Of a stretch of 64,000 nt of DNA, positions 972-44,397 are shown piece after piece. The first letter of the stretch is position 1. Each line of letters begins with the position of its first letter. Origin of the DNA: Escherichia coli (lineage in GTDB: Bacteria; Pseudomonadota; Gammaproteobacteria; Enterobacterales; Enterobacteriaceae). The translations under genes and the position numbers were made by a program. The stretch lies in assembly GCF_003334385.1 (NCBI RefSeq), contig NZ_QOWN01000008.1. One strand, 5' to 3'. Under the pieces are notes generated by a model that saw only the letters and a program-made list of their open reading frames with translations, had not been told where the DNA came from and did not search any database.

Positions 972-2327
972 TTATTGCTGACGTTGCACCCACTCTTTTA
1001 GCGCCTGACGTGAAATTTTAATACCGCCGTTTTTCAGCTCCGGCGGCAGAGTTAGCCAGCGCACCGGTTGTTGAAAACGGGCCAGCTTATCTTTCACCCA
1101 TTCACTAAGATCAACGCTCTCGTGGTCATACTCCATCACCGCCACCGGTCGATGACCAAACTCCTTGTCGGCAACGGGGACGATAAACACCTGCAAAACC
1201 GCAGGATGTGCAGCAATTACGCGCTCGACTTCTTCCGGCTGAATACCCTCTCCGCCACTGAAGAATAGATTGTCTAAACGTCCGACAATGGTCAGCTTGC
1301 CATTATGCATCTCACCGCGATCGCGCGTAGCGTACCAGCCTTCGTCATTAACCAGTGAAACCAGTTGCCCGTTACGCCAGTAACCTTCTGCCATACTGGC
1401 AGCCCGCAGCCACACTTCATTATTAACGATTTTCACTTCCCGACCCGGCAGCGGCGAACCAACGTCTGCCAGGCCGTCGGCTTCTTTCGCACACACCGTG
1501 GAGGCAAACTCGGTCAGACCATAGCCGCAAAAGCAACGAATCCCCTGCTCGCGCGCCTGTTCCGTCAACTCGACCGGGATAGCCGCGCCGCCAAGTAACA
1601 CCGCTTTCAGGGAAACGGAACTACGGTTAACCAGCAAACGCCAGAGTTGTGTTGGCACCAGTGAAGCGTGAGTACAGCCTGCCAGCATTTGCTCCAATGG
1701 CTGTTTATCACGTACCGTCATCCGCGCACCAGCGTATAACCAGCGCCACATAATTCCCTGACCGGAGACGTGAAACAGCGGTAAAGAGAGCAACCAATCA
1801 TCGTGATCGCCAAACGGAATCAGCGATAACACACCTTGCGCACTGGCAAGATGGGCCTGATAAGTATGGACAGCGGCTTTCGGCAAACCGGTAGAACCCG
1901 AGGTCAACGTCATTGAGCACAGACGCGTCGGCTGCCACGTAGCGGCATGTGCGCCTTCAACCAGCTGAATGTGCAGCGACGTTAATGCCGGAAACGTGTT
2001 TTCCCCATCCGGCACCAGAGCAAATTGCAGCGTCAGATTGGGCAGCAATTCTTCAAGCAACGGTTGCGGCAGCTGAGGGTTCACGGGCAACACCCGCGCC
2101 CCGCATTGCAGTAACGCCAGCCAGGCGAGCAGCGTTTGCGGCGTATTCCACGCCCGCAACATCACGCCGCTGCCCTCAACCACCCCCTGCACCGCAAATC
2201 CGGAGGCTAATTCATCGACGCGAGCACAAAGCTCGCGCCAGTTGAGTTGCTCGTCATTAAGACGTAAGGCGATGGTTTCTCCCCGCACTTGCCGCCAGTG
2301 ACGCCACGGCCAGTCAGAGAAGATCAT
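972..2327 (-). CDS. menE: o-succinylbenzoate-CoA ligase (451 aa)
   Basis: Full-length ORF with adenylate-forming enzyme motifs ([10 protein letters not shown]); synteny with menC; 4-nt overlap with menC. Confidence 0.93.
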
Positions 2328-3286
2328 AACAACCGCTCCAGTGCATCAACTTCCACGACAGGCAGCGTGCTACCCGGCCAGCGACGTACCTGCTGCGCCT
2401 GCATCAGATCCAGCGTGTCCAGCCCTGGAATGGTGTCCGGCGTTAACCAGGCGGCAATCCGCGCCAGTTGCGTTAAGCCTAAGCTCGATTCAATGGAAGA
2501 ACTGATCACCGCCGTCAGCCCCAGCGCGTGCGCCGCCTGTACCTGCTCGCGTACTTTTTCCAGACTGCCCGTGAGCGTGGGTTTGATAACTACCGCGCGC
2601 ACGCCCTCTTCAGCCACAAAGGCAAAATCCGGCTCGCGCAGGCTTTCATCCCAGGCAATGGCAATGCCGGTTTCACGGGCAAACGCTCGCGAATCATCGC
2701 GGGTTTTGCACGGCTCTTCGAGAAACGCGATGCGGTCGCGATAATCCGGGTTAACGTATTTGGCAAACTGCTGACCTTTCAGCGGTGTCCAGGCGCGATT
2801 TGCGTCAAGACGCAAATGCAGATCCGGAATTGCCTCCAGCAACAGATTCACCACCATGCCGTCGCGCACCGCTTCGTACAATCCCACTTTGACCTTCGCC
2901 ACTTTCTCGCCTGGCATATCTGCAAGTTTGAGGATCAGATCGTCCGGATCGCCATTACACAGCGGTGCCGCACGGTAGTTGGCTGCTTGCGGCAACGTAT
3001 CTGTCAGTTCTGCCAATGCACAGCTTACGCCAAAGGCCACGGAAGGCATCTGCGGTAGCTCGCAATCGCCTGCCAGCCAGTTATTTACCCAGGCAAGCAG
3101 CACACTTTGCGCCTCTTCCCAGGTTTCCTGACTGAAGCCCGGCAGTGGGGAGATCTCCCCCCACCCTTCGCGCTCGCCTTCACGCAGGCAAACATACAGC
3201 CCGTCGCGGGTTTTTAACCGCCTGTCGCGCAGAACCACCCCCGCGTCCATGGGGATCTGCCAGCGGTATACCTGCGCGCTACGCAT
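2324..3286 (-). CDS. menC: o-succinylbenzoate synthase (320 aa)
   Basis: [52 protein letters not shown]... enolase-superfamily OSBS; overlaps menB by 1 nt (TAATG). Confidence 0.93.
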
Positions 3287-4143
3287 TACGGATTCCGTTT
3301 GAATTTGCTGAAGTCAGGCTGACGTTTCTGGTTGAAGGCGTTGCGACCTTCCTGACCTTCTTCCGTCATGTAGAACAGCATGGTGGCGTTGCCCGCCAGC
3401 TCCTGCAGCCCCGCCTGCCCGTCACAGTCGGCGTTCAGTGCAGCTTTCAGGCAGCGCAGCGCCATCGGGCTGTTTTGCAGCATTTCGCGGCACCAACGGA
3501 CGGTTTCTTTTTCCAGATCCGCCAGCGGTACCACGGTGTTCACAAGGCCCATATCCAGCGCCTGTTTTGCGTCGTACTGACGGCACAGGAACCAGATTTC
3601 ACGCGCTTTTTTCTGCCCGACGATGCGAGCCATGTAGGAAGCGCCCCAGCCGCCGTCGAAGGAACCGACTTTCGGGCCAGTCTGACCGAAGATGGCATTA
3701 TCTGCCGCGATAGTCAGGTCGCACATCATGTGCAGAACGTGACCGCCGCCGATGGAGTAGCCAGCCACCATCGCGACAACCGGTTTCGGACAGGTACGGA
3801 TCTGACGCTGGAAGTCCAGCACATTCAGGTGATGTACGCCGGAATCATCTTTATAGCCGCCGTAATCACCACGCACTTTCTGGTCACCACCGGAGCAGAA
3901 CGCTTTATCGCCTGCACCAGTCAGAATGATCACGCCGATGTTGTCGTCATAACGCGCATCTGCCAGCGCCTGGATCATCTCTTTTACCGTCAGAGGACGG
4001 AAGGCATTGCGCACCTGCGGACGATTAATGGTGATTTTTGCGATACCGTCGGTGGATTTTTCATAACGAATGTCCTCGAAACCTTCGGAGCAGTCGTGCC
4101 ATTCAACCGGTGCGTAAAGCATTGCTTCATCAGGATAAATCAT
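3286..4143 (-). CDS. menB: 1,4-dihydroxy-2-naphthoyl-CoA synthase (285 aa)
   Basis: Crotonase-fold protein [50 protein letters not shown]...; position in men cluster. Confidence 0.95.
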
Positions 4144-4157
4144 ATTGTGTCCTTTAG

Positions 4158-4916
4158 TCAGAAACGCAAGATCTGCGCCAGACTTGCGATTACGCCAGCG
4201 GGATTTTCCCGATGCGCGTTATGTCCGGCGCGAGGAATGACATGGCAGTCGGCAGCCAGTTCCGCCGCCAGGGCGCGGAATTTGCTGTCACGTTCACCAC
4301 ATAAATAATAAAACGCAAATGTGCGGGCGCTAAGGTTAGCACGTAAATCAGGCTGGACGGCGAGAGAAGTCGCCTCCAGCATGGCGGCAAGCGTTGCGCC
4401 ATTATTGTTGCTGCGCAGCGCCACCAGCTCCCGGCGTTGATCGTCATTGAGTGAGGCAAAAACAGGCTGTTGATACCAGTCGGCAAATACCGCCGTTAAC
4501 GGTTCTGTGAGAAAACGCTGCACCCATTGGCGATCGGAACGCTGACGTTCCGCACGTTGTTCAGCATTTTGCAGCCCCGGATGCCCGCCTTCGACAATAA
4601 CCCCACAAAGCCCCGCCAGCCCCTGGCAAGCCGCCATCATCGCCACCCGTCCACCAAGCGAGTACCCCACCAGCCAGAAGTCAAGGATGTTGTAACTAAC
4701 CAAGGTTTTACGCAGTAAGTCGGTGACATCATCAAATCCATCGACGCTAATCGCCGCCGAACCACCGTGACCTGGGAGATCAACATACAACCGTGAGTAG
4801 TCGGCAAACGCCTCGCCCACTTCTTGCCATTCGTGGCAATCGCCGGAAAAACCGTGCAAAAACACCAGCCAGGGTAAACCTGGTTTTCCGTGTTTTGCCT
4901 GCGCGTGCAGGATCAT
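4158..4916 (-). CDS. menH: SHCHC synthase, alpha/beta hydrolase (252 aa)
   Basis: [26 protein letters not shown]... with GYSLGG nucleophile elbow; 4-nt overlap with menD. Confidence 0.9.
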
Positions 4917-6583
4917 AAATGGCTTACCTGCGCCAGAAGTTGCTGGAGCGTTTGCGCACCATCGGTGTCGTTAACCACCATTTCAATCACCGTGGTGGTT
5001 GGCGTGCGCCAGGCGTCGGCAAATGCCGTTTCAAGTTCCTGCCAGTTTTGCGGACGATGATATTTCAGCTCGAACATCGCGGCGGCGTGCTCAAAATGGA
5101 CGTTTTGCGGCATCAGATAGAAACGCTCACGCTCGCTTTGCGGCGTTGGCAACAGCGAGAAAATTTGCCCGCCGTTGTTGTTCACCACAATTAATACCAG
5201 CGGCGCAGAAACCTGACGCAATAACGCCAGCGCGTTGAGATCGTAAAGTGCGGAGAGATCGCCCACAATCGCCAGCGTCGGTTTGCCGCTTGCCCGCTGA
5301 ACGCCGGCGGCGGTCGAAAGCAGCCCGTCGATACCGCTGGCCCCACGGTTGCTGTACACCGGGTAACCTGCCGGAAGTTGCGAAAGCGCATCAATCAGAC
5401 GTACCACCAGGCTGTTACCAACAAACAATTGCCCCTGTTCAGGCAGATAGTCGCAGATGCGATGCGCCAGTTGCGCTTCGCCAAACGCATCACGGCGGGC
5501 AATAACCGCCTGCATTGCCTGTTCCGCCAGGCGCGGGATTTCAACGCACCAGGGCTGGCGTTTTTCTGCCGGATGCAGCTCCAGCCAGTCGGCAATATTG
5601 GCAATTAAGCGACGTCCGCGATGGTGTGCCGGATCAAGTCGCCCTTCAATGTCATCAACAATCCAGTACTCTTCTGGTTCACAGCTTGCCTGCCATTGCA
5701 GGAGCCGTTTCCCCGTCAGGCTGCTTCCCAGTTGCACCACAATTTGCGCCTGCTGCAGCTCGCTGGTCGCTTTGGCATTGCCTAACCAAAGATCGGCACA
5801 CGGCAGCGGCTGCCCGGTTTGTGACAGCACATCGCCAATCAGCGGCCAGCCAAGAGTTTGCGCCCACAGGGCAACTTTTTTGCCCTCTTCCGCACTCATG
5901 CGCCCGGCAACCACCACGCCGCGCTTTTGTCGCCAGAAGAACCAGTCGCGCTGTTTTTCACTTTCCAGACGAGGCGCTTCACGCAGCCACGGTTTGTCGT
6001 CCTGCCACCAGTCACCCAGACGCTGTTGCCAGCTAAGCCCGGTATCGTCCATTTCGCCATACAGCGGTTCAGCAAACGGGCAGTTGATATGGACTCCCCC
6101 CGCATGAAGCGTACCGAGAGCGTGGTCGATGGTAGAAACCAGCCAACGTGCGGGGATATCCTGGGTCGGGCGCGGCAATGAAATACTGTGCGTGGGGTGA
6201 GAGGCGAACATTCCCGGCTGGCGAATTGCCTGATTCGCGCCGCAGTCAATTAGCTCCGGCGGGCGATCGGCGGTTAAGAGAATCAGTTTTTCTCCGGTTA
6301 ACCCGGCTTCAATCAGTGCCGGATAGAGATTTGCCACCGCCGTGCCGGAGGTCACAATCACCGCCACCGGCTGCTTGCTGACTTTCGCCAGCCCCAGCGC
6401 CAGATGCCCCAACCCACGCTCATCGAAATGGGTGTGGTGAATGAATGCGGAATTCTCCGCCGCCGCTAACGTTAACGGTGTAGAACGCGAGCCTGGGGCG
6501 ATACAGATGTGTCTGACGCCGTGACGCGTTAATGCTTCCAGAATGACCGCCGCCCAGCGTCGGTTAAATGCGCTTACTGACAT
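4913..6583 (-). CDS. menD: SEPHCHC synthase, ThDP-dependent (556 aa)
   Basis: Track ORF is 673 aa but the conserved protein begins [37 protein letters not shown]...; start placed at the ATG at 6581-6583. Confidence 0.9.
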
Positions 6584-9849: not shown

Positions 9850-10036
9850 CTCTGCTTATTATTAAAAACAGGGCGAAACTTGCCCTGTTATCGCAACCCG
9901 CGCTACATATATCCACCCACACAGGCATATTGAGCGATTTTTGATATTTATTCATCTCCTTACGCACTATATTCAGAGCAATAAGTTGCCTCTTTTCATC
10001 TTGATTCAGCACAACCTTTGCAACTAAAAGGAGCCC

Positions 10037-39993: not shown

Positions 39994-40449
39994 TTACAAA
40001 TCATCAAGGAAAGTTTTATCCAGTTGTTTGAAGGCGCGCTTAAGCGTGTCAGCTAATGCCTGGTAATCAGGCTTGCCTTCAACGGGTGCCAACACCTGTC
40101 CAGACTCCTGCAATTTACCGCGAACTTCATAAAACCAGTTAAGGATTGCAGGGGGTAATGGCGTGACAGAACGCTTGCCCAGCCACCACAATCCCTGCAT
40201 GGGTAAACTTAAGGCGAACAGGGCAGTGGCAACTGCCGGCCCAAGCTGACCGCCCAGGGCAATCTGCCAGCAGAGAGTAAATACGGCGATCGGCGGCATA
40301 AAACGGATCGCATAACGCGTCATCTTGATAACGCGATTTTCGACAAAGACCGGGGCAAGGCGTTTTTCCAGCGGCCACGTCTTTGAGTAATGCTGTCCCC
40401 GGCGAAACAAGCTAAAAAAATTAACAGAACGATTATCCGGCGTTGACAT
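39994..40449 (-). CDS. yfbV: YfbV, UPF0208-family inner-membrane protein (151 aa)
   Basis: [42 protein letters not shown]... Confidence 0.88.
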
Positions 40450-40695
40450 GCTTCACCTCAACTTCACATATAAAGATTCAAAAATTTGTGCAAATTCACA
40501 ACTCAGCGGGACAACGTTCAAAACATTTTGTCTTCCATACCCACTATCAGGTATCCTTTAGCAGCCTGAAGGCCTAAGTAGTACATATTCATTGAGTCGT
40601 CAAATTCATATACATTATGCCATTGGCTGAAAATTACGCAAAATGGCATAGACTCAAGATATTTCTTCCATCATGCAAAAAAAATTTGCAGTGCA

Positions 40696-40709
40696 TGATG
40701 TTAATCATA
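40696..40709 (+). promoter_or_regulatory. FNR/CRP-type palindrome in the ackA promoter region
   Basis: ATGATgttaATCAT is a perfect 14-bp palindrome resembling the FNR consensus TTGAT-N4-ATCAA; it lies about 80 bp upstream of the ackA ATG, next to a TTGCAG -35-like hexamer. Confidence 0.3.
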
Positions 40710-40786
40710 AATGTCGGTGTCATCATGCGCTACGCTCTATGGCTCCCTGACGTTTTTTTAGCCACGTATCAATTATAGGTACTTCC

Positions 40787-41989
40787 ATGTCGAGTAAGTT
40801 AGTACTGGTTCTGAACTGCGGTAGTTCTTCACTGAAATTTGCCATCATCGATGCAGTAAATGGTGAAGAGTACCTTTCTGGTTTAGCCGAATGTTTCCAC
40901 CTGCCCGAAGCACGTATCAAATGGAAAATGGACGGCAATAAACAGGAAGCGGCTTTAGGTGCAGGCGCCGCTCACAGCGAAGCGCTCAACTTTATCGTTA
41001 ATACTATTCTGGCACAAAAACCAGAACTGTCTGCGCAGCTGACTGCTATCGGTCACCGTATCGTACACGGCGGCGAAAAGTATACCAGCTCCGTAGTGAT
41101 CGATGAGTCTGTTATTCAGGGTATCAAAGATGCAGCTTCTTTTGCACCGCTGCACAACCCGGCTCACCTGATCGGTATCGAAGAAGCTCTGAAATCTTTC
41201 CCACAGCTGAAAGACAAAAACGTTGCTGTATTTGACACCGCGTTCCACCAGACTATGCCGGAAGAGTCTTACCTCTACGCCCTGCCTTACAACCTGTACA
41301 AAGAGCACGGCATCCGTCGTTACGGCGCGCACGGCACCAGCCACTTCTATGTAACCCAGGAAGCGGCAAAAATGCTGAACAAACCGGTAGAAGAACTGAA
41401 CATCATCACCTGCCACCTGGGCAACGGTGGTTCCGTTTCTGCTATCCGCAACGGTAAATGCGTTGACACCTCTATGGGCCTGACCCCGCTGGAAGGTCTG
41501 GTCATGGGTACCCGTTCTGGTGATATCGATCCGGCGATCATCTTCCACCTGCACGACACCCTGGGCATGAGCGTTGACGCAATCAACAAACTGCTGACCA
41601 AAGAGTCTGGCCTGCTGGGTCTGACCGAAGTGACCAGCGACTGCCGCTATGTTGAAGACAACTACGCGACGAAAGAAGACGCGAAGCGCGCAATGGACGT
41701 TTACTGCCACCGCCTGGCGAAATACATCGGTGCCTACACTGCGCTGATGGATGGTCGTCTGGACGCTGTTGTATTCACTGGTGGTATCGGTGAAAATGCC
41801 GCAATGGTTCGTGAACTGTCTCTGGGCAAACTGGGCGTGCTGGGCTTTGAAGTTGATCATGAACGCAACCTGGCTGCACGTTTCGGCAAATCTGGTTTCA
41901 TCAACAAAGAAGGTACCCGTCCTGCGGTGGTTATCCCAACCAACGAAGAACTGGTTATCGCGCAAGACGCGAGCCGCCTGACTGCCTGA
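40787..41989 (+). CDS. ackA: Acetate kinase (400 aa)
   Basis: [67 protein letters not shown]... Confidence 0.97.
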
Positions 41990-42063: not shown

Positions 42064-44208
42064 GTGTCCCGTATTATTATGCTGATCCCTACCGGAACCA
42101 GCGTCGGTCTGACCAGCGTCAGCCTTGGCGTGATCCGTGCAATGGAACGCAAAGGCGTTCGTCTGAGCGTTTTCAAACCTATCGCTCAGCCGCGTACCGG
42201 TGGCGATGCGCCCGATCAGACTACGACTATCGTGCGTGCGAACTCTTCCACCACGACGGCCGCTGAACCGCTGAAAATGAGCTACGTTGAAGGTCTGCTT
42301 TCCAGCAATCAGAAAGATGTGCTGATGGAAGAGATCGTCGCAAACTACCACGCTAACACCAAAGACGCTGAAGTCGTTCTGGTTGAAGGTCTGGTCCCGA
42401 CACGTAAGCACCAGTTTGCCCAGTCTCTGAACTACGAAATCGCTAAAACGCTGAATGCGGAAATCGTCTTCGTTATGTCTCAGGGCACTGACACCCCGGA
42501 ACAGCTGAAAGAGCGTATCGAACTGACCCGCAACAGCTTCGGCGGTGCCAAAAACACCAACATCACCGGCGTTATCGTTAACAAACTGAACGCACCGGTT
42601 GATGAACAGGGTCGTACTCGCCCGGATCTGTCCGAGATTTTCGACGACTCTTCCAAAGCTAAAGTAAACAATGTTGATCCGGCGAAGCTGCAAGAATCCA
42701 GCCCGCTGCCGGTTCTCGGCGCTGTGCCGTGGAGCTTTGACCTGATCGCGACTCGTGCGATCGATATGGCTCGCCACCTGAATGCGACCATCATCAACGA
42801 AGGCGACATCAATACTCGCCGCGTTAAATCCGTCACTTTCTGCGCACGCAGCATTCCGCACATGCTGGAGCACTTCCGTGCCGGTTCTCTGCTGGTGACT
42901 TCCGCAGACCGTCCTGACGTGCTGGTGGCCGCTTGCCTGGCAGCCATGAACGGCGTAGAAATCGGTGCCCTGCTGCTGACTGGCGGTTACGAAATGGACG
43001 CGCGCATTTCTAAACTGTGCGAACGTGCTTTCGCTACCGGCCTGCCGGTATTTATGGTGAACACCAACACCTGGCAGACCTCTCTGAGCCTGCAGAGCTT
43101 CAACCTGGAAGTTCCGGTTGACGATCACGAACGTATCGAGAAAGTTCAGGAATACGTTGCTAACTACATCAACGCTGACTGGATCGAATCTCTGACTGCC
43201 ACTTCTGAGCGCAGCCGTCGTCTGTCTCCGCCTGCGTTCCGTTATCAGCTGACTGAACTTGCGCGCAAAGCGGGCAAACGTATCGTACTGCCGGAAGGTG
43301 ACGAACCGCGTACCGTTAAAGCAGCCGCTATCTGTGCTGAACGTGGTATCGCAACTTGCGTACTGCTGGGTAATCCGGCAGAGATCAACCGTGTTGCAGC
43401 GTCTCAGGGTGTAGAACTGGGTGCAGGGATTGAAATCGTTGATCCAGAAGTGGTTCGCGAAAGCTATGTTGGTCGTCTGGTCGAACTGCGTAAGAACAAA
43501 GGCATGACCGAAACCGTTGCCCGCGAACAGCTGGAAGACAACGTGGTGCTCGGTACGCTGATGCTGGAACAGGATGAAGTTGATGGTCTGGTTTCCGGTG
43601 CTGTTCACACTACCGCAAACACCATCCGTCCGCCGCTGCAGCTGATCAAAACTGCACCGGGCAGCTCCCTGGTATCTTCCGTGTTCTTCATGCTGCTGCC
43701 GGAACAGGTTTACGTTTACGGTGACTGTGCGATCAACCCGGATCCGACCGCTGAACAGCTGGCAGAAATCGCGATTCAGTCCGCTGATTCCGCTGCGGCC
43801 TTCGGTATCGAACCGCGCGTTGCTATGCTCTCCTACTCCACCGGTACTTCTGGTGCAGGTAGCGACGTAGAAAAAGTTCGCGAAGCAACTCGTCTGGCGC
43901 AGGAAAAACGTCCTGACCTGATGATCGACGGTCCGCTGCAGTACGACGCTGCGGTAATGGCTGACGTTGCGAAATCCAAAGCGCCGAACTCTCCGGTTGC
44001 AGGTCGCGCTACCGTGTTCATCTTCCCGGATCTGAACACCGGTAACACCACCTACAAAGCGGTACAGCGTTCTGCCGACCTGATCTCCATCGGGCCGATG
44101 CTGCAGGGTATGCGCAAGCCGGTTAACGACCTGTCCCGTGGCGCACTGGTTGACGATATCGTCTACACCATCGCGCTGACTGCGATTCAGTCTGCACAGC
44201 AGCAGTAA
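42064..44208 (+). CDS. pta: Phosphate acetyltransferase (714 aa)
   Basis: [43 protein letters not shown]...; DRTGG + PTA domain architecture; directly downstream of ackA. Confidence 0.97.
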
Positions 44209-44278: not shown

Positions 44279-44397
44279 TTCTCTTAATTTGCATTAATCC
44301 TTTCTGATTATCTTGCTTAACTGCGCTGCATCAATGAATTGCGCCATCCCACTTTGCATACTTACCACTTTGTTTTGTGCAAGGGAATATTTGCGCT

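What the first reader, a model, noticed from the sequence alone, without database searches (positions are those of the whole stretch)
40696..40709. Perfect 14-bp palindrome ATGATgttaATCAT in the ackA promoter
It resembles an FNR (TTGAT-N4-ATCAA) or CRP-family half-site pair and sits next to a -35-like TTGCAG. ackA-pta expression increases anaerobically, so an FNR-type site is plausible, but regulator identity cannot be decided from sequence alone.
Basis: partly seen in the sequence, partly recalled or inferred. Interest (0 to 1): 0.3.

Follow-up and report, generated by a model that had tools for sequence, protein, structure and literature searches.

The report
Known FNR site upstream of ackA

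Summary
The window is E. coli, at the yfbV / ackA-pta locus. ATGATGTTAATCAT lies at 40695-40708, one base left of the coordinates given. It is a 5-bp inverted repeat around a non-palindromic 4-bp spacer, not a perfect 14-bp palindrome. Repeats of this shape are common (88 in the window, about 62 expected), so the shape alone means little.

Three things make it real. It matches TTGAT-N4-ATCAA at 8 of 10 positions and is much the best FNR-like site in the intergenic region. [quoted passage not shown] It is also present in all 78 distinct Enterobacteriaceae upstream sequences I aligned, inside the longest conserved run of the intergenic region.

The neighbouring "-35-like" TTGCAG is not conserved. 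A TAnnnT hexamer (TACGCT, 40731-40736) sits exactly 29.5 bp from the site centre in every species. A published transcription start 42 nt before the ATG fits that hexamer. This suggests class II activation (site near -41.5 to -43.5) rather than the published -74.5, but it is unsettled.

Verdict: already known, low interest.

The parts
40695..40708 (.). FNR operator ATGAT-GTTA-ATCAT (centre 40701.5 = U00096.2 2,411,406.5)
   Evidence: Sequence read. FNR matrix score is 12.06 bits, the best in the intergenic region. Published FNR ChIP summits map to 40699 and 40705. Present in 78 of 78 distinct Enterobacteriaceae sequences, 76 of them identical.
40693..40715 (.). Conserved block GCATGATGTTAATCATAAATGTC, which holds the FNR site plus its 3' flank. 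The flank would be the -35 region of a class II promoter.
   Evidence: This is the longest run of at least 90% column identity in the 337-bp yfbV-ackA intergenic alignment (coordinates printed are one too low; verified).
40731..40736 (+). -10-like hexamer TACGCT. Its first base is 29.5 bp from the FNR site centre.
   Evidence: The hexamer is TAnnnT at a fixed distance in all 78 sequences: TACGCT 73, TACGAT 2, TATTCT 2, TAGGCT 1. Mendoza-Vargas 2009 predicted the same box (atgcGCTACGCTctat) for their ackA start site.
40745..40745 (+). Transcription start 42 nt upstream of the ackA ATG. The FNR site is then centred at -43.5.
   Evidence: Mendoza-Vargas 2009, Table S1: TSS/start-gene distance -42, two 454 reads, labelled 'New', multiple promoters 'yes'. 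This is weak experimental support.
40776..40776 (+). Alternative transcription start implied by the published '-74.5' position of the FNR site
   Evidence: Myers 2013 Table 1 gives one FNR motif at -74.5, with start sites taken from EcoCyc or Kim 2012. Both of Kim's ackA starts lie upstream of the site, so the start used must be 2,411,481, which is window 40776. This is inferred, and I did not see the original mapping. No good -10/-35 pair precedes it.
40787..41989 (+). ackA (acetate kinase), first gene of the regulated operon
   Evidence: ORF. Annotated as ackA in E. coli genomes.
42064..44208 (+). pta (phosphate acetyltransferase), second gene of the operon
   Evidence: ORF. Myers 2013 treats ackA-pta as one FNR-activated operon, and both genes are about 9-10 fold higher anaerobically (aerobic/anaerobic ratios 0.11 and 0.10).

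Best explanation
The repeat ATGAT-N4-ATCAT at 40695-40708 is a moderate-affinity operator for FNR, the oxygen-sensing regulator of the CRP/FNR family. Without oxygen, the [4Fe-4S] FNR dimer binds it, one subunit per 5-bp arm, and raises transcription of the ackA-pta operon. This adds to the anaerobic increase in acetate kinase and phosphotransacetylase.

Shown by published in vivo data and by the sequence work here: FNR occupies this spot, the site is under strong purifying selection, and ackA-pta responds to FNR and to anaerobiosis.

Inferred: the geometry. I think the most likely arrangement is class II activation. The site would overlap a poor -35 region (TAAATG) of a promoter whose -10 is TACGCT (40731-40736) and whose start is about 40743-40745. 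That puts the site at -41.5 to -43.5, where FNR can contact sigma-70 region 4 and the alpha subunit. The published table instead places it at -74.5 from a start 11 nt before the ATG. Both promoters may exist.
For: 1) Identity of the locus: the region is 100% identical to E. coli genomes and to MG1655. The coordinate mapping was verified with the 51-mers from Kim 2012 that end at their start sites, with the published ackA CDS coordinates, and with the upp/purM FNR site.

2) In vivo binding: Grainger 2007 found an FNR ChIP-chip peak at yfbV/ackA. Myers 2013 found ChIP-seq and ChIP-chip peaks with all four peak callers. The summits at 2,411,404 and 2,411,410 lie within 3.5 bp of the site centre, with one FNR motif at ln(p) -8.96.

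3) Motif: 8 of 10 matches to TTGAT-N4-ATCAA. It scores 12.06 bits on a matrix from 63 ChIP-bound sites, and the next best site in the intergenic region scores 6.3 bits. Bound sites with an A at position 1 exist, for example at pdhR, moaA, yoeA, gadE and yhcC.

4) Regulation: Myers places ackA-pta in category 1, direct activation, with increased sigma-70 occupancy anaerobically (peak height 1268 to 5613). The aerobic/anaerobic expression ratios are 0.11 (ackA) and 0.10 (pta).

5) Conservation: the 14-mer is present in 78 of 78 distinct Enterobacteriaceae upstream sequences. The only variant is T to C at position 5, which FNR tolerates. It lies in the longest conserved run of the intergenic region, while the 5' flank is free to vary.

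6) Class II geometry: a TAnnnT hexamer lies exactly 29.5 bp from the site centre in all 78 sequences, with no indels between them. A start site mapped at -42 from the ATG was assigned the same -10 box. Myers reports that 19 of 23 FNR-activated promoters with a known start have the site at -41.5 +/- 4.
Against: - FNR dependence of ackA-pta expression was significant in only 1 of the 3 transcriptome data sets in Myers 2013. The effect of FNR may therefore be modest, and most of the roughly 9-fold anaerobic induction may come from elsewhere.
- The -42 start site rests on two 454 reads from a study that was not anaerobic.
- The published position of the site is -74.5, not about -42.
- Kim 2012 found only weak starts at 40564 and 40689, both upstream of the site.
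- No footprint, gel shift or site mutagenesis for this site turned up in the literature I could reach.
- The site departs from consensus at the outer base of both arms (A instead of T).
- The invariance of the 4-bp spacer and of the 3' flank is more than FNR contacts alone would require.
- The TACGCT box and the 3' flank also lie inside a conserved hairpin. Their conservation is therefore not unambiguous evidence for promoter elements.
Confidence: 0.85

Rival explanations
1. The protein and site are the same, but the geometry differs. FNR bound at 40695-40708 activates from far upstream (-74.5, class I-like, through the alpha C-terminal domain) a promoter that starts about 11 nt before the ackA ATG, as tabulated by Myers 2013.
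For: Myers 2013 Table 1 lists the site at -74.5 relative to a start site taken from EcoCyc or Kim 2012. The stretch CTGACGTTTTTTTAGCCACGTATCA just upstream of that start is almost invariant.
Against: - -74.5 is 3 bp off the helical face used by class I sites (-61.5, -71.5, -82.5; established knowledge of CRP/FNR activation).
- No acceptable -10/-35 pair precedes 40776. CTGACG and TATCAA are only 14 bp apart.
- A start at 40776 leaves an 11-nt leader that begins at the Shine-Dalgarno-like TAGG.
- I could not see the primary mapping data.
- Myers notes that very few activated promoters have sites beyond -61.5.
Confidence: 0.3
2. The repeat is bound mainly by another CRP/FNR-family protein, such as CRP, or by another regulator such as ArcA. 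That protein, rather than FNR, sets ackA expression.
For: The core TGA-N6-TCA is shared by CRP and FNR sites. The base that tells the two apart is A on both arms, which is neither the T of FNR nor the G of CRP. The overlapping GTTAATCATAAATGTC resembles the ArcA repeat consensus GTTAATTAAATGTTA, which I recalled from memory.
Against: - FNR occupancy is shown directly by ChIP in two studies.
- The 22-mer matches the CRP consensus at only 11 of 22 positions and lacks the G5/C18 pair on both arms.
- The two ArcA-like repeats are 13 bp apart, not 11.
- Neither ackA nor yfbV, nor their coordinates, appear in the main text or the 13 held supplementary files of the ArcA ChIP-seq study, Park 2013.
Confidence: 0.05
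3. FNR binds here but has little regulatory effect. The block would then be conserved for another reason, such as core promoter elements, nucleoid-protein binding, or the neighbouring RNA hairpin.
For: ackA-pta is FNR-dependent in only 1 of 3 transcriptome sets. Myers 2013 documents many FNR peaks with no expression change (categories 3-5). Conservation extends beyond the bases FNR contacts, into the spacer GTTA and the flank AAATGTC. That flank forms the 5' arm of a conserved hairpin.
Against: - The 14-mer itself lies outside the hairpin.
- Both arms, including the G/C pairs that FNR reads, are invariant in 78 sequences while the 5' flank drifts freely.
- Sigma-70 occupancy rises anaerobically at this promoter, and Myers places the operon in the direct-activation class.
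Confidence: 0.1
4. It is a chance inverted repeat with no function.
For: 5-N4-5 inverted repeats and 2-mismatch FNR-like 14-mers are common in the window: 88 and 51 respectively. Two other sites in the window score as well on the FNR matrix.
Against: The site is invariant across about 78 distinct Enterobacteriaceae sequences in an otherwise variable spacer. Published FNR ChIP summits fall on it.
Confidence: 0.01

Closest known systems
E. coli FNR binding sites (TTGAT-N4-ATCAA), specifically the yfbV/ackA FNR target reported by Grainger et al. 2007 and Myers et al. 2013
   Same: It is the same locus and the same protein. The ChIP peak summits coincide with the repeat within 3.5 bp, there is a single motif of moderate score, and the operon is classed as directly FNR-activated.
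   Different: Grainger's AlignACE motif (AAAATTTGCAGTGCATGATGTTAA, 40681-40704) is centred 9 bp upstream, on TTGCA-N4-ATGAT. That placement scores -4.5 bits on the FNR matrix, and its left half is not conserved. The repeat at 40695-40708 is therefore the better assignment. The published position of -74.5 may refer to a different start site from the one FNR actually drives.
Class II FNR-dependent promoters (site at -41.5, e.g. narG, dmsA, nirB, frdA, as listed by Myers 2013)
   Same: The site centre lies 29.5 bp upstream of a TAnnnT -10 hexamer, the -35 region is poor and overlaps the site's right flank, and a mapped start puts the site at -43.5. That is inside the -41.5 +/- 4 window used by Myers.
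   Different: The start site has only two reads behind it and has not been shown to depend on fnr. The site is weaker than typical class II sites: 12 bits against a median of 15.5 for bound sites above the published threshold.
CRP binding sites (TGTGA-N6-TCACA)
   Same: Both have the shared core TGA-N6-TCA and the same dimer-on-inverted-repeat logic.
   Different: The site lacks the G/C pair at position 5/18 on both arms and matches the 22-bp consensus at 11 of 22 positions. I found no evidence of CRP occupancy.

Membership tests
FNR operator (CRP/FNR-family site TTGAT-N4-ATCAA) | Inverted repeat with 5-bp arms and a 4-bp spacer, keeping the TGA...TCA core and scoring well on an FNR weight matrix | tested here: met
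   The site matches the consensus at 8 of 10 positions, with both mismatches at the outermost bases. It scores 12.06 bits (ln p about -10.6) on a matrix built from 63 ChIP-bound sites and is the best site in the intergenic region by 5.8 bits. Myers reports ln(p) -8.96 for the motif under this peak.
FNR operator (CRP/FNR-family site TTGAT-N4-ATCAA) | Occupied by FNR in vivo | tested here: met
   This was tested by mapping coordinates onto published data, not by experiment. ChIP-seq summits at 2,411,404 and 2,411,410 map to window 40699 and 40705, against a site centre of 40701.5. The peak was found by four peak callers and in the earlier ChIP-chip study.
FNR operator (CRP/FNR-family site TTGAT-N4-ATCAA) | Expression of the adjacent operon depends on fnr and on anaerobiosis | tested here: inconclusive
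   From the literature only. ackA and pta are about 9-10 fold higher anaerobically, and sigma-70 occupancy is up. The fnr dependence is significant in only 1 of 3 transcriptome sets.
FNR operator (CRP/FNR-family site TTGAT-N4-ATCAA) | Site position compatible with activation (near -41.5 for class II; -61.5, -71.5 and so on for class I) | tested here: inconclusive
   The site is at -43.5 relative to the start mapped 42 nt before the ATG (two reads), with a conserved TAnnnT hexamer 29.5 bp from the centre. It is at -74.5 relative to the start used by Myers. Which start depends on FNR is unknown.
FNR operator (CRP/FNR-family site TTGAT-N4-ATCAA) | Direct protection or gel shift by purified FNR, and loss of regulation on site mutation | not testable with these tools
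   No footprint or mutagenesis of this site turned up in the papers I could reach.
CRP site (TGTGA-N6-TCACA) | G/C pair at position 5/18 and a good match to the 22-bp consensus | tested here: not met
   The 22-mer GTGCATGATGTTAATCATAAAT matches AAATGTGATCTAGATCACATTT at 11 of 22 positions, with A instead of G on both arms.
ArcA box (direct repeats, 11 bp centre to centre) | Two TGTTA-like repeats 11 bp apart, and ArcA occupancy | tested here: not met
   GTTA at 40700 and GTCG at 40713 are 13 bp apart. Park 2013 has no ackA or yfbV entry in the main text or the held supplementary files.
Sigma-70 promoter using TTGCAG (40686-40691) as its -35 element | -35 and -10 hexamers at 16-18 bp spacing, conserved in relatives | tested here: not met
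   The scan found no promoter-like pair on the + strand. TTGCAG is confined to Escherichia, and the 9 nt upstream of the site take 45 forms in 78 sequences.

The most novel reading that the evidence does not exclude
The FNR-dependent promoter may be nested inside a conserved terminator-like hairpin (40709-40755, followed by U7 at 40753-40759). Transcripts from the conserved upstream promoters (starts at 40564 and 40689) would be stopped just before the ackA ribosome-binding site. Transcripts started by FNR at about 40745 begin inside the 3' arm of the hairpin and would escape it. FNR would then switch ackA from an attenuated long leader to a short, unterminated one.
Probability: 0.08. Interest if true: 0.45.

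Novelty: already known. Interest (0 to 1): 0.12.

Why it matters
ackA-pta is the main acetate-overflow and acetyl-phosphate pathway of E. coli. Knowing how oxygen availability sets its level matters for physiology and for metabolic engineering. The FNR input at this promoter is already in the literature, so this finding adds nothing new in kind. The small refinements made here are:
- the exact 14-mer that carries the site;
- its invariance across Enterobacteriaceae;
- the likely class II geometry, which differs from the published -74.5.

These could correct database annotation and guide promoter engineering.

Tried and rejected
- Promoter and terminator consensus scan of 40350-40900: no + strand promoter uses TTGCAG, and no canonical terminator was called.
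- Rfam scan of 40300-40900 at E <= 1: only a chance snoRNA hit at E = 0.31.
- ArcA as a co-regulator: the repeat spacing is wrong and Park 2013 has no entry.
- CRP: poor match.
- Grainger's motif placement, TTGCA-N4-ATGAT: rejected at -4.5 bits and not conserved.
- Start-site data. Kim 2012 gives only weak upstream starts at 40564 and 40689. The held Cappable-seq supplement had no hit. The Conway 2014 supplement is not held. Thomason 2015 and De Mets 2019 are not held. The SdhX paper gives no ackA start site.
- A comparative FNR-regulon paper, Ravcheev 2007, does not mention ackA.
- RNAalifold on the leader keeps only an invariant 7-bp outer stem with no compensatory changes. A hand-drawn extended hairpin does better than slid controls but has modest covariation.
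- I did not look beyond Enterobacteriaceae, because the single genome-collection scan returned only YfbV relatives of 87-100% identity.

Full report
**What is in the sequence**

The window is Escherichia coli. A 401-bp stretch around the finding is at least 99% identical to 5425 of 5426 complete E. coli genomes, and 40450-40790 is identical to MG1655. The finding lies in the 337-bp spacer between two divergent genes. These are yfbV (39994-40449, minus strand) and ackA (ATG at 40787), which is followed by pta (42064-44208).

The string ATGATGTTAATCAT is at 40695-40708, one base to the left of the stated coordinates. It is not a perfect 14-bp palindrome. The arms ATGAT and ATCAT are complementary, but the central GTTA is not self-complementary and the arms do not extend.

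**Is it more than chance?**

As a shape, it is not. The window contains 88 perfect 5-N4-5 inverted repeats, where about 62 are expected. It also contains 51 14-mers within two mismatches of TTGATNNNNATCAA.

I built a symmetric weight matrix from the 63 ChIP-bound FNR sites listed in Table S6 of Myers et al. 2013. On that matrix the repeat scores 12.06 bits. That is rank 3 of 63,987 positions in the window, where 1.6 are expected at that score. Across the whole window it is therefore unremarkable. Within the intergenic region only about 0.008 such sites are expected, and the next best site scores 6.3 bits.

**Published binding data**

I mapped window coordinates to MG1655 (+2,372,683 for NC_000913.3, +2,370,705 for U00096.2). 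I checked the mapping in three ways:
- the ackA CDS coordinates given by Kim 2012;
- the 51-mers that end at Kim's two ackA start sites;
- the upp/purM FNR site.

The repeat is centred at U00096.2 position 2,411,406.5.

Grainger et al. 2007 (PMC1802558) list yfbV/ackA among 63 FNR ChIP-chip targets. Myers et al. 2013 (PMC3688515) report an FNR peak here with all four peak-calling methods, with summits at 2,411,404 (Table S5) and 2,411,410 (Table 1). Those positions are window 40699 and 40705, on either side of the repeat centre at 40701.5. Myers also reports a single FNR motif at PatSer ln(p) -8.96.

Myers places ackA-pta in category 1, direct activation. Sigma-70 occupancy is higher anaerobically (1268 versus 5613), and the aerobic/anaerobic expression ratios are 0.11 for ackA and 0.10 for pta.

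One caveat applies. The fnr dependence of expression was significant in only one of the three transcriptome data sets.

**Which 14-mer is the site?**

Grainger's AlignACE motif, AAAATTTGCAGTGCATGATGTTAA (40681-40704), is centred 9 bp upstream, on TTGCA-N4-ATGAT. That placement scores -4.5 bits on the FNR matrix, and its left half is not conserved (see the next section).

Sites in Myers' table with a single outer mismatch score about -11 to -12 ln(p). Examples are TTGATATTAATCAT and ATGATTTCAATCAA. A site with both outer mismatches would therefore score near -9, which agrees with the -8.96 reported for this peak.

**Conservation**

A search with YfbV returned 80 loci from Enterobacteriaceae genomes at 87-100% protein identity. 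They include Escherichia, Citrobacter, Salmonella, Klebsiella, Raoultella, Enterobacter, Kluyvera, Kosakonia, Leclercia, Lelliottia, Trabulsiella, Siccibacter and others. Of these, 77 contain the ackA start.

In the alignment of 78 distinct upstream sequences, the 14-mer is identical in 76. In the other two, labelled Enterobacter pulveris and Siccibacter colletis, it reads ATGACGTTAATCAT. This T-to-C change is frequent in bound FNR sites.

The repeat lies in a 23-nt block, GCATGATGTTAATCATAAATGTC (40693-40715). This is the longest run of at least 90% column identity in the whole spacer (the printed coordinates there are one too low, and one search gives the correct ones).

The 9 nt immediately upstream take 45 different forms. 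TTGCAG is therefore an Escherichia-specific accident and not a conserved promoter element. The consensus scan also finds no + strand promoter that uses it.

**How it probably works**

Myers tabulates the site at -74.5, using start sites from EcoCyc or Kim 2012. Both of Kim's ackA starts (40564 and 40689; 4 and 5 reads) lie upstream of the site. The start used must therefore be 2,411,481, which is window 40776, only 11 nt before the ATG. I could not see the primary data for that start. No acceptable -35/-10 pair precedes it, because CTGACG and TATCAA are only 14 bp apart.

The sequence points to a different arrangement. A hexamer TACGCT (40731-40736) begins exactly 29.5 bp from the site centre. 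That is the distance expected when an FNR site sits at -41.5 and the -10 hexamer at -12 to -7, from established knowledge of class II CRP/FNR promoters. In all 78 sequences this hexamer keeps the form TAnnnT (TACGCT 73, TACGAT 2, TATTCT 2, TAGGCT 1), with no insertion or deletion between it and the site.

Independently, Mendoza-Vargas et al. 2009 (PMC2760140, Table S1) mapped an ackA start 42 nt upstream of the start codon by 454 sequencing. They recorded two reads, labelled it 'New', marked multiple promoters 'yes', and assigned it the -10 box atgcGCTACGCTctat. That start is window 40745, which puts the FNR site at -43.5. This falls within the -41.5 +/- 4 window that holds 19 of the 23 FNR-activated promoters with a known start in Myers' study.

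My best reading is a class II FNR-activated promoter with a poor -35 region (TAAATG) overlapped by the right flank of the site. A second start nearer the ATG may also exist. This sub-claim rests on two reads plus sequence geometry, and I rate it at about even odds.

**Rival explanations**

- **CRP.** The 22-mer matches the CRP consensus at 11 of 22 positions. It has A on both arms where CRP requires G.
- **ArcA.** The overlapping GTTAATCATAAATGTC resembles the ArcA repeat consensus, which I recalled from memory. The repeats are 13 bp apart rather than 11. Neither ackA nor yfbV appears in the text or the held supplements of the ArcA ChIP-seq study.
- **Binding without consequence.** This cannot be excluded, given the 1-of-3 transcriptome result. 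It sits poorly with the invariance of exactly the bases FNR reads.
- **Chance.** This is excluded by the conservation and the ChIP data.

**What remains unexplained**

Conservation covers the spacer GTTA and the flank AAATGTC, which FNR does not need. Both arms also carry the same departure from consensus (A for T) in every species. A selected sub-optimal affinity, an overlap with the -35 region, or an overlap with the RNA element described below could account for this. I could not tell these apart.

**Seen in passing**

The flank AAATGTCGG (40709-40717) can pair with CTGACGTTT (40747-40755), which runs into a U7 tract (40753-40759). Inner pairs are also possible. In E. coli the 91-nt stretch folds at -21.9 kcal/mol, with a z-score of -2.5.

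Across 47 sequences the hand-drawn 17-pair structure has 85% of cells paired, against 30-55% when the partners are slid by 1 to 3 columns. Six pairs show changes on both sides. RNAalifold, however, retains only the invariant outer stem and finds no compensatory change. The structure was also derived from the E. coli sequence, which biases the slid control.

It looks like an intrinsic terminator placed between the upstream starts and the ackA ribosome-binding site. The TACGCT box sits in its loop region, and the -42 start sits in its 3' arm. This observation is the basis of the novel reading given in the report. It is speculative.

**Verdict**

The FNR interpretation is correct and already published in two genome-wide binding studies. 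Novelty: already known. Interest: low. The only added value is the exact placement of the site, its family-wide invariance, and the argument that the published -74.5 should probably be about -42.

Noticed in passing
window 40709-40759 (+ strand): A conserved terminator-like hairpin (AAATGTCGG ... CTGACGTTT plus inner pairs) runs into a U7 tract just upstream of the ackA ribosome-binding site. Across 47 sequences 85% of cells are paired, against 30-55% in slid controls, and covariation is modest. RNAalifold keeps only the invariant outer stem. The putative -10 box and the -42 start lie inside it.
   Followed up: partly
window 40528-40564 (+ strand): A conserved sigma-70-like promoter, TTGTCT-18 bp-TATCCT, ends 7 nt before the weak start site at 40564 from Kim 2012 (2,411,269; 4 reads; 223-nt leader). 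A second weak start at 40689 (5 reads) lies 6 nt upstream of the FNR site. Transcripts from either would read through the FNR site.
   Followed up: partly
window 40452-40467: The direct repeat TTCACctcaacTTCAC matches the 'cre tag' TTCAC-N6-TTCAC of the CreBC regulon, which I recalled from Avison et al. 2001 and did not check. It lies 3-18 nt upstream of the yfbV start codon and overlaps its Shine-Dalgarno sequence on the other strand. The core is conserved.
   Followed up: no
window 40617-40649: A perfect 8-bp inverted repeat, ATGCCATT-N17-AATGGCAT, is partly conserved. Mendoza-Vargas 2009 predicted a Fis site inside it (ATTTTGCGTAATTTTCAGCCAATG, the reverse complement of 40621-40644).
   Followed up: no
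window 44284-44297: An FNR-like TTAATTTGCATTAA (9.9 bits) lies in the pta-yfcC spacer. Myers 2013 reports an FNR peak for yfcC (2,415,052 and 2,415,092, which map to window 44347 and 44387) and FNR-activated yfcC expression. The peak summits are 50-90 bp from this motif's centre (44290.5), so the true site may be another one.
   Followed up: no
window 41110 (minus strand), inside ackA: Kim 2012 lists a yfbV start site at 2,411,815 (33 reads), 661 nt upstream of yfbV and inside the ackA coding region. It would give a transcript antisense to the ackA 5' end and to the whole regulatory region. Miyakoshi 2019 notes the same arrangement in Salmonella.
   Followed up: no
window 40747-40789: The leader CTGACGTTTTTTTAGCCACGTATCA and the ribosome-binding region TAGGTACTTCCATG are almost invariant across Enterobacteriaceae. 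The region around the start codon is the published pairing site of the small RNA SdhX (Miyakoshi 2019). The reason for the invariance of the U-rich stretch is unknown. Hfq binding or the terminator tail are possibilities.
   Followed up: no
window 1101-1114 and 10001-10014: Two intragenic 14-mers, TTCACTAAGATCAA and TTGATTCAGCACAA, score as well as the ackA site on the FNR matrix. Myers Table S6 lists the first (within menE) as a predicted site with no ChIP peak. This shows that motif score alone does not predict binding.
   Followed up: partly
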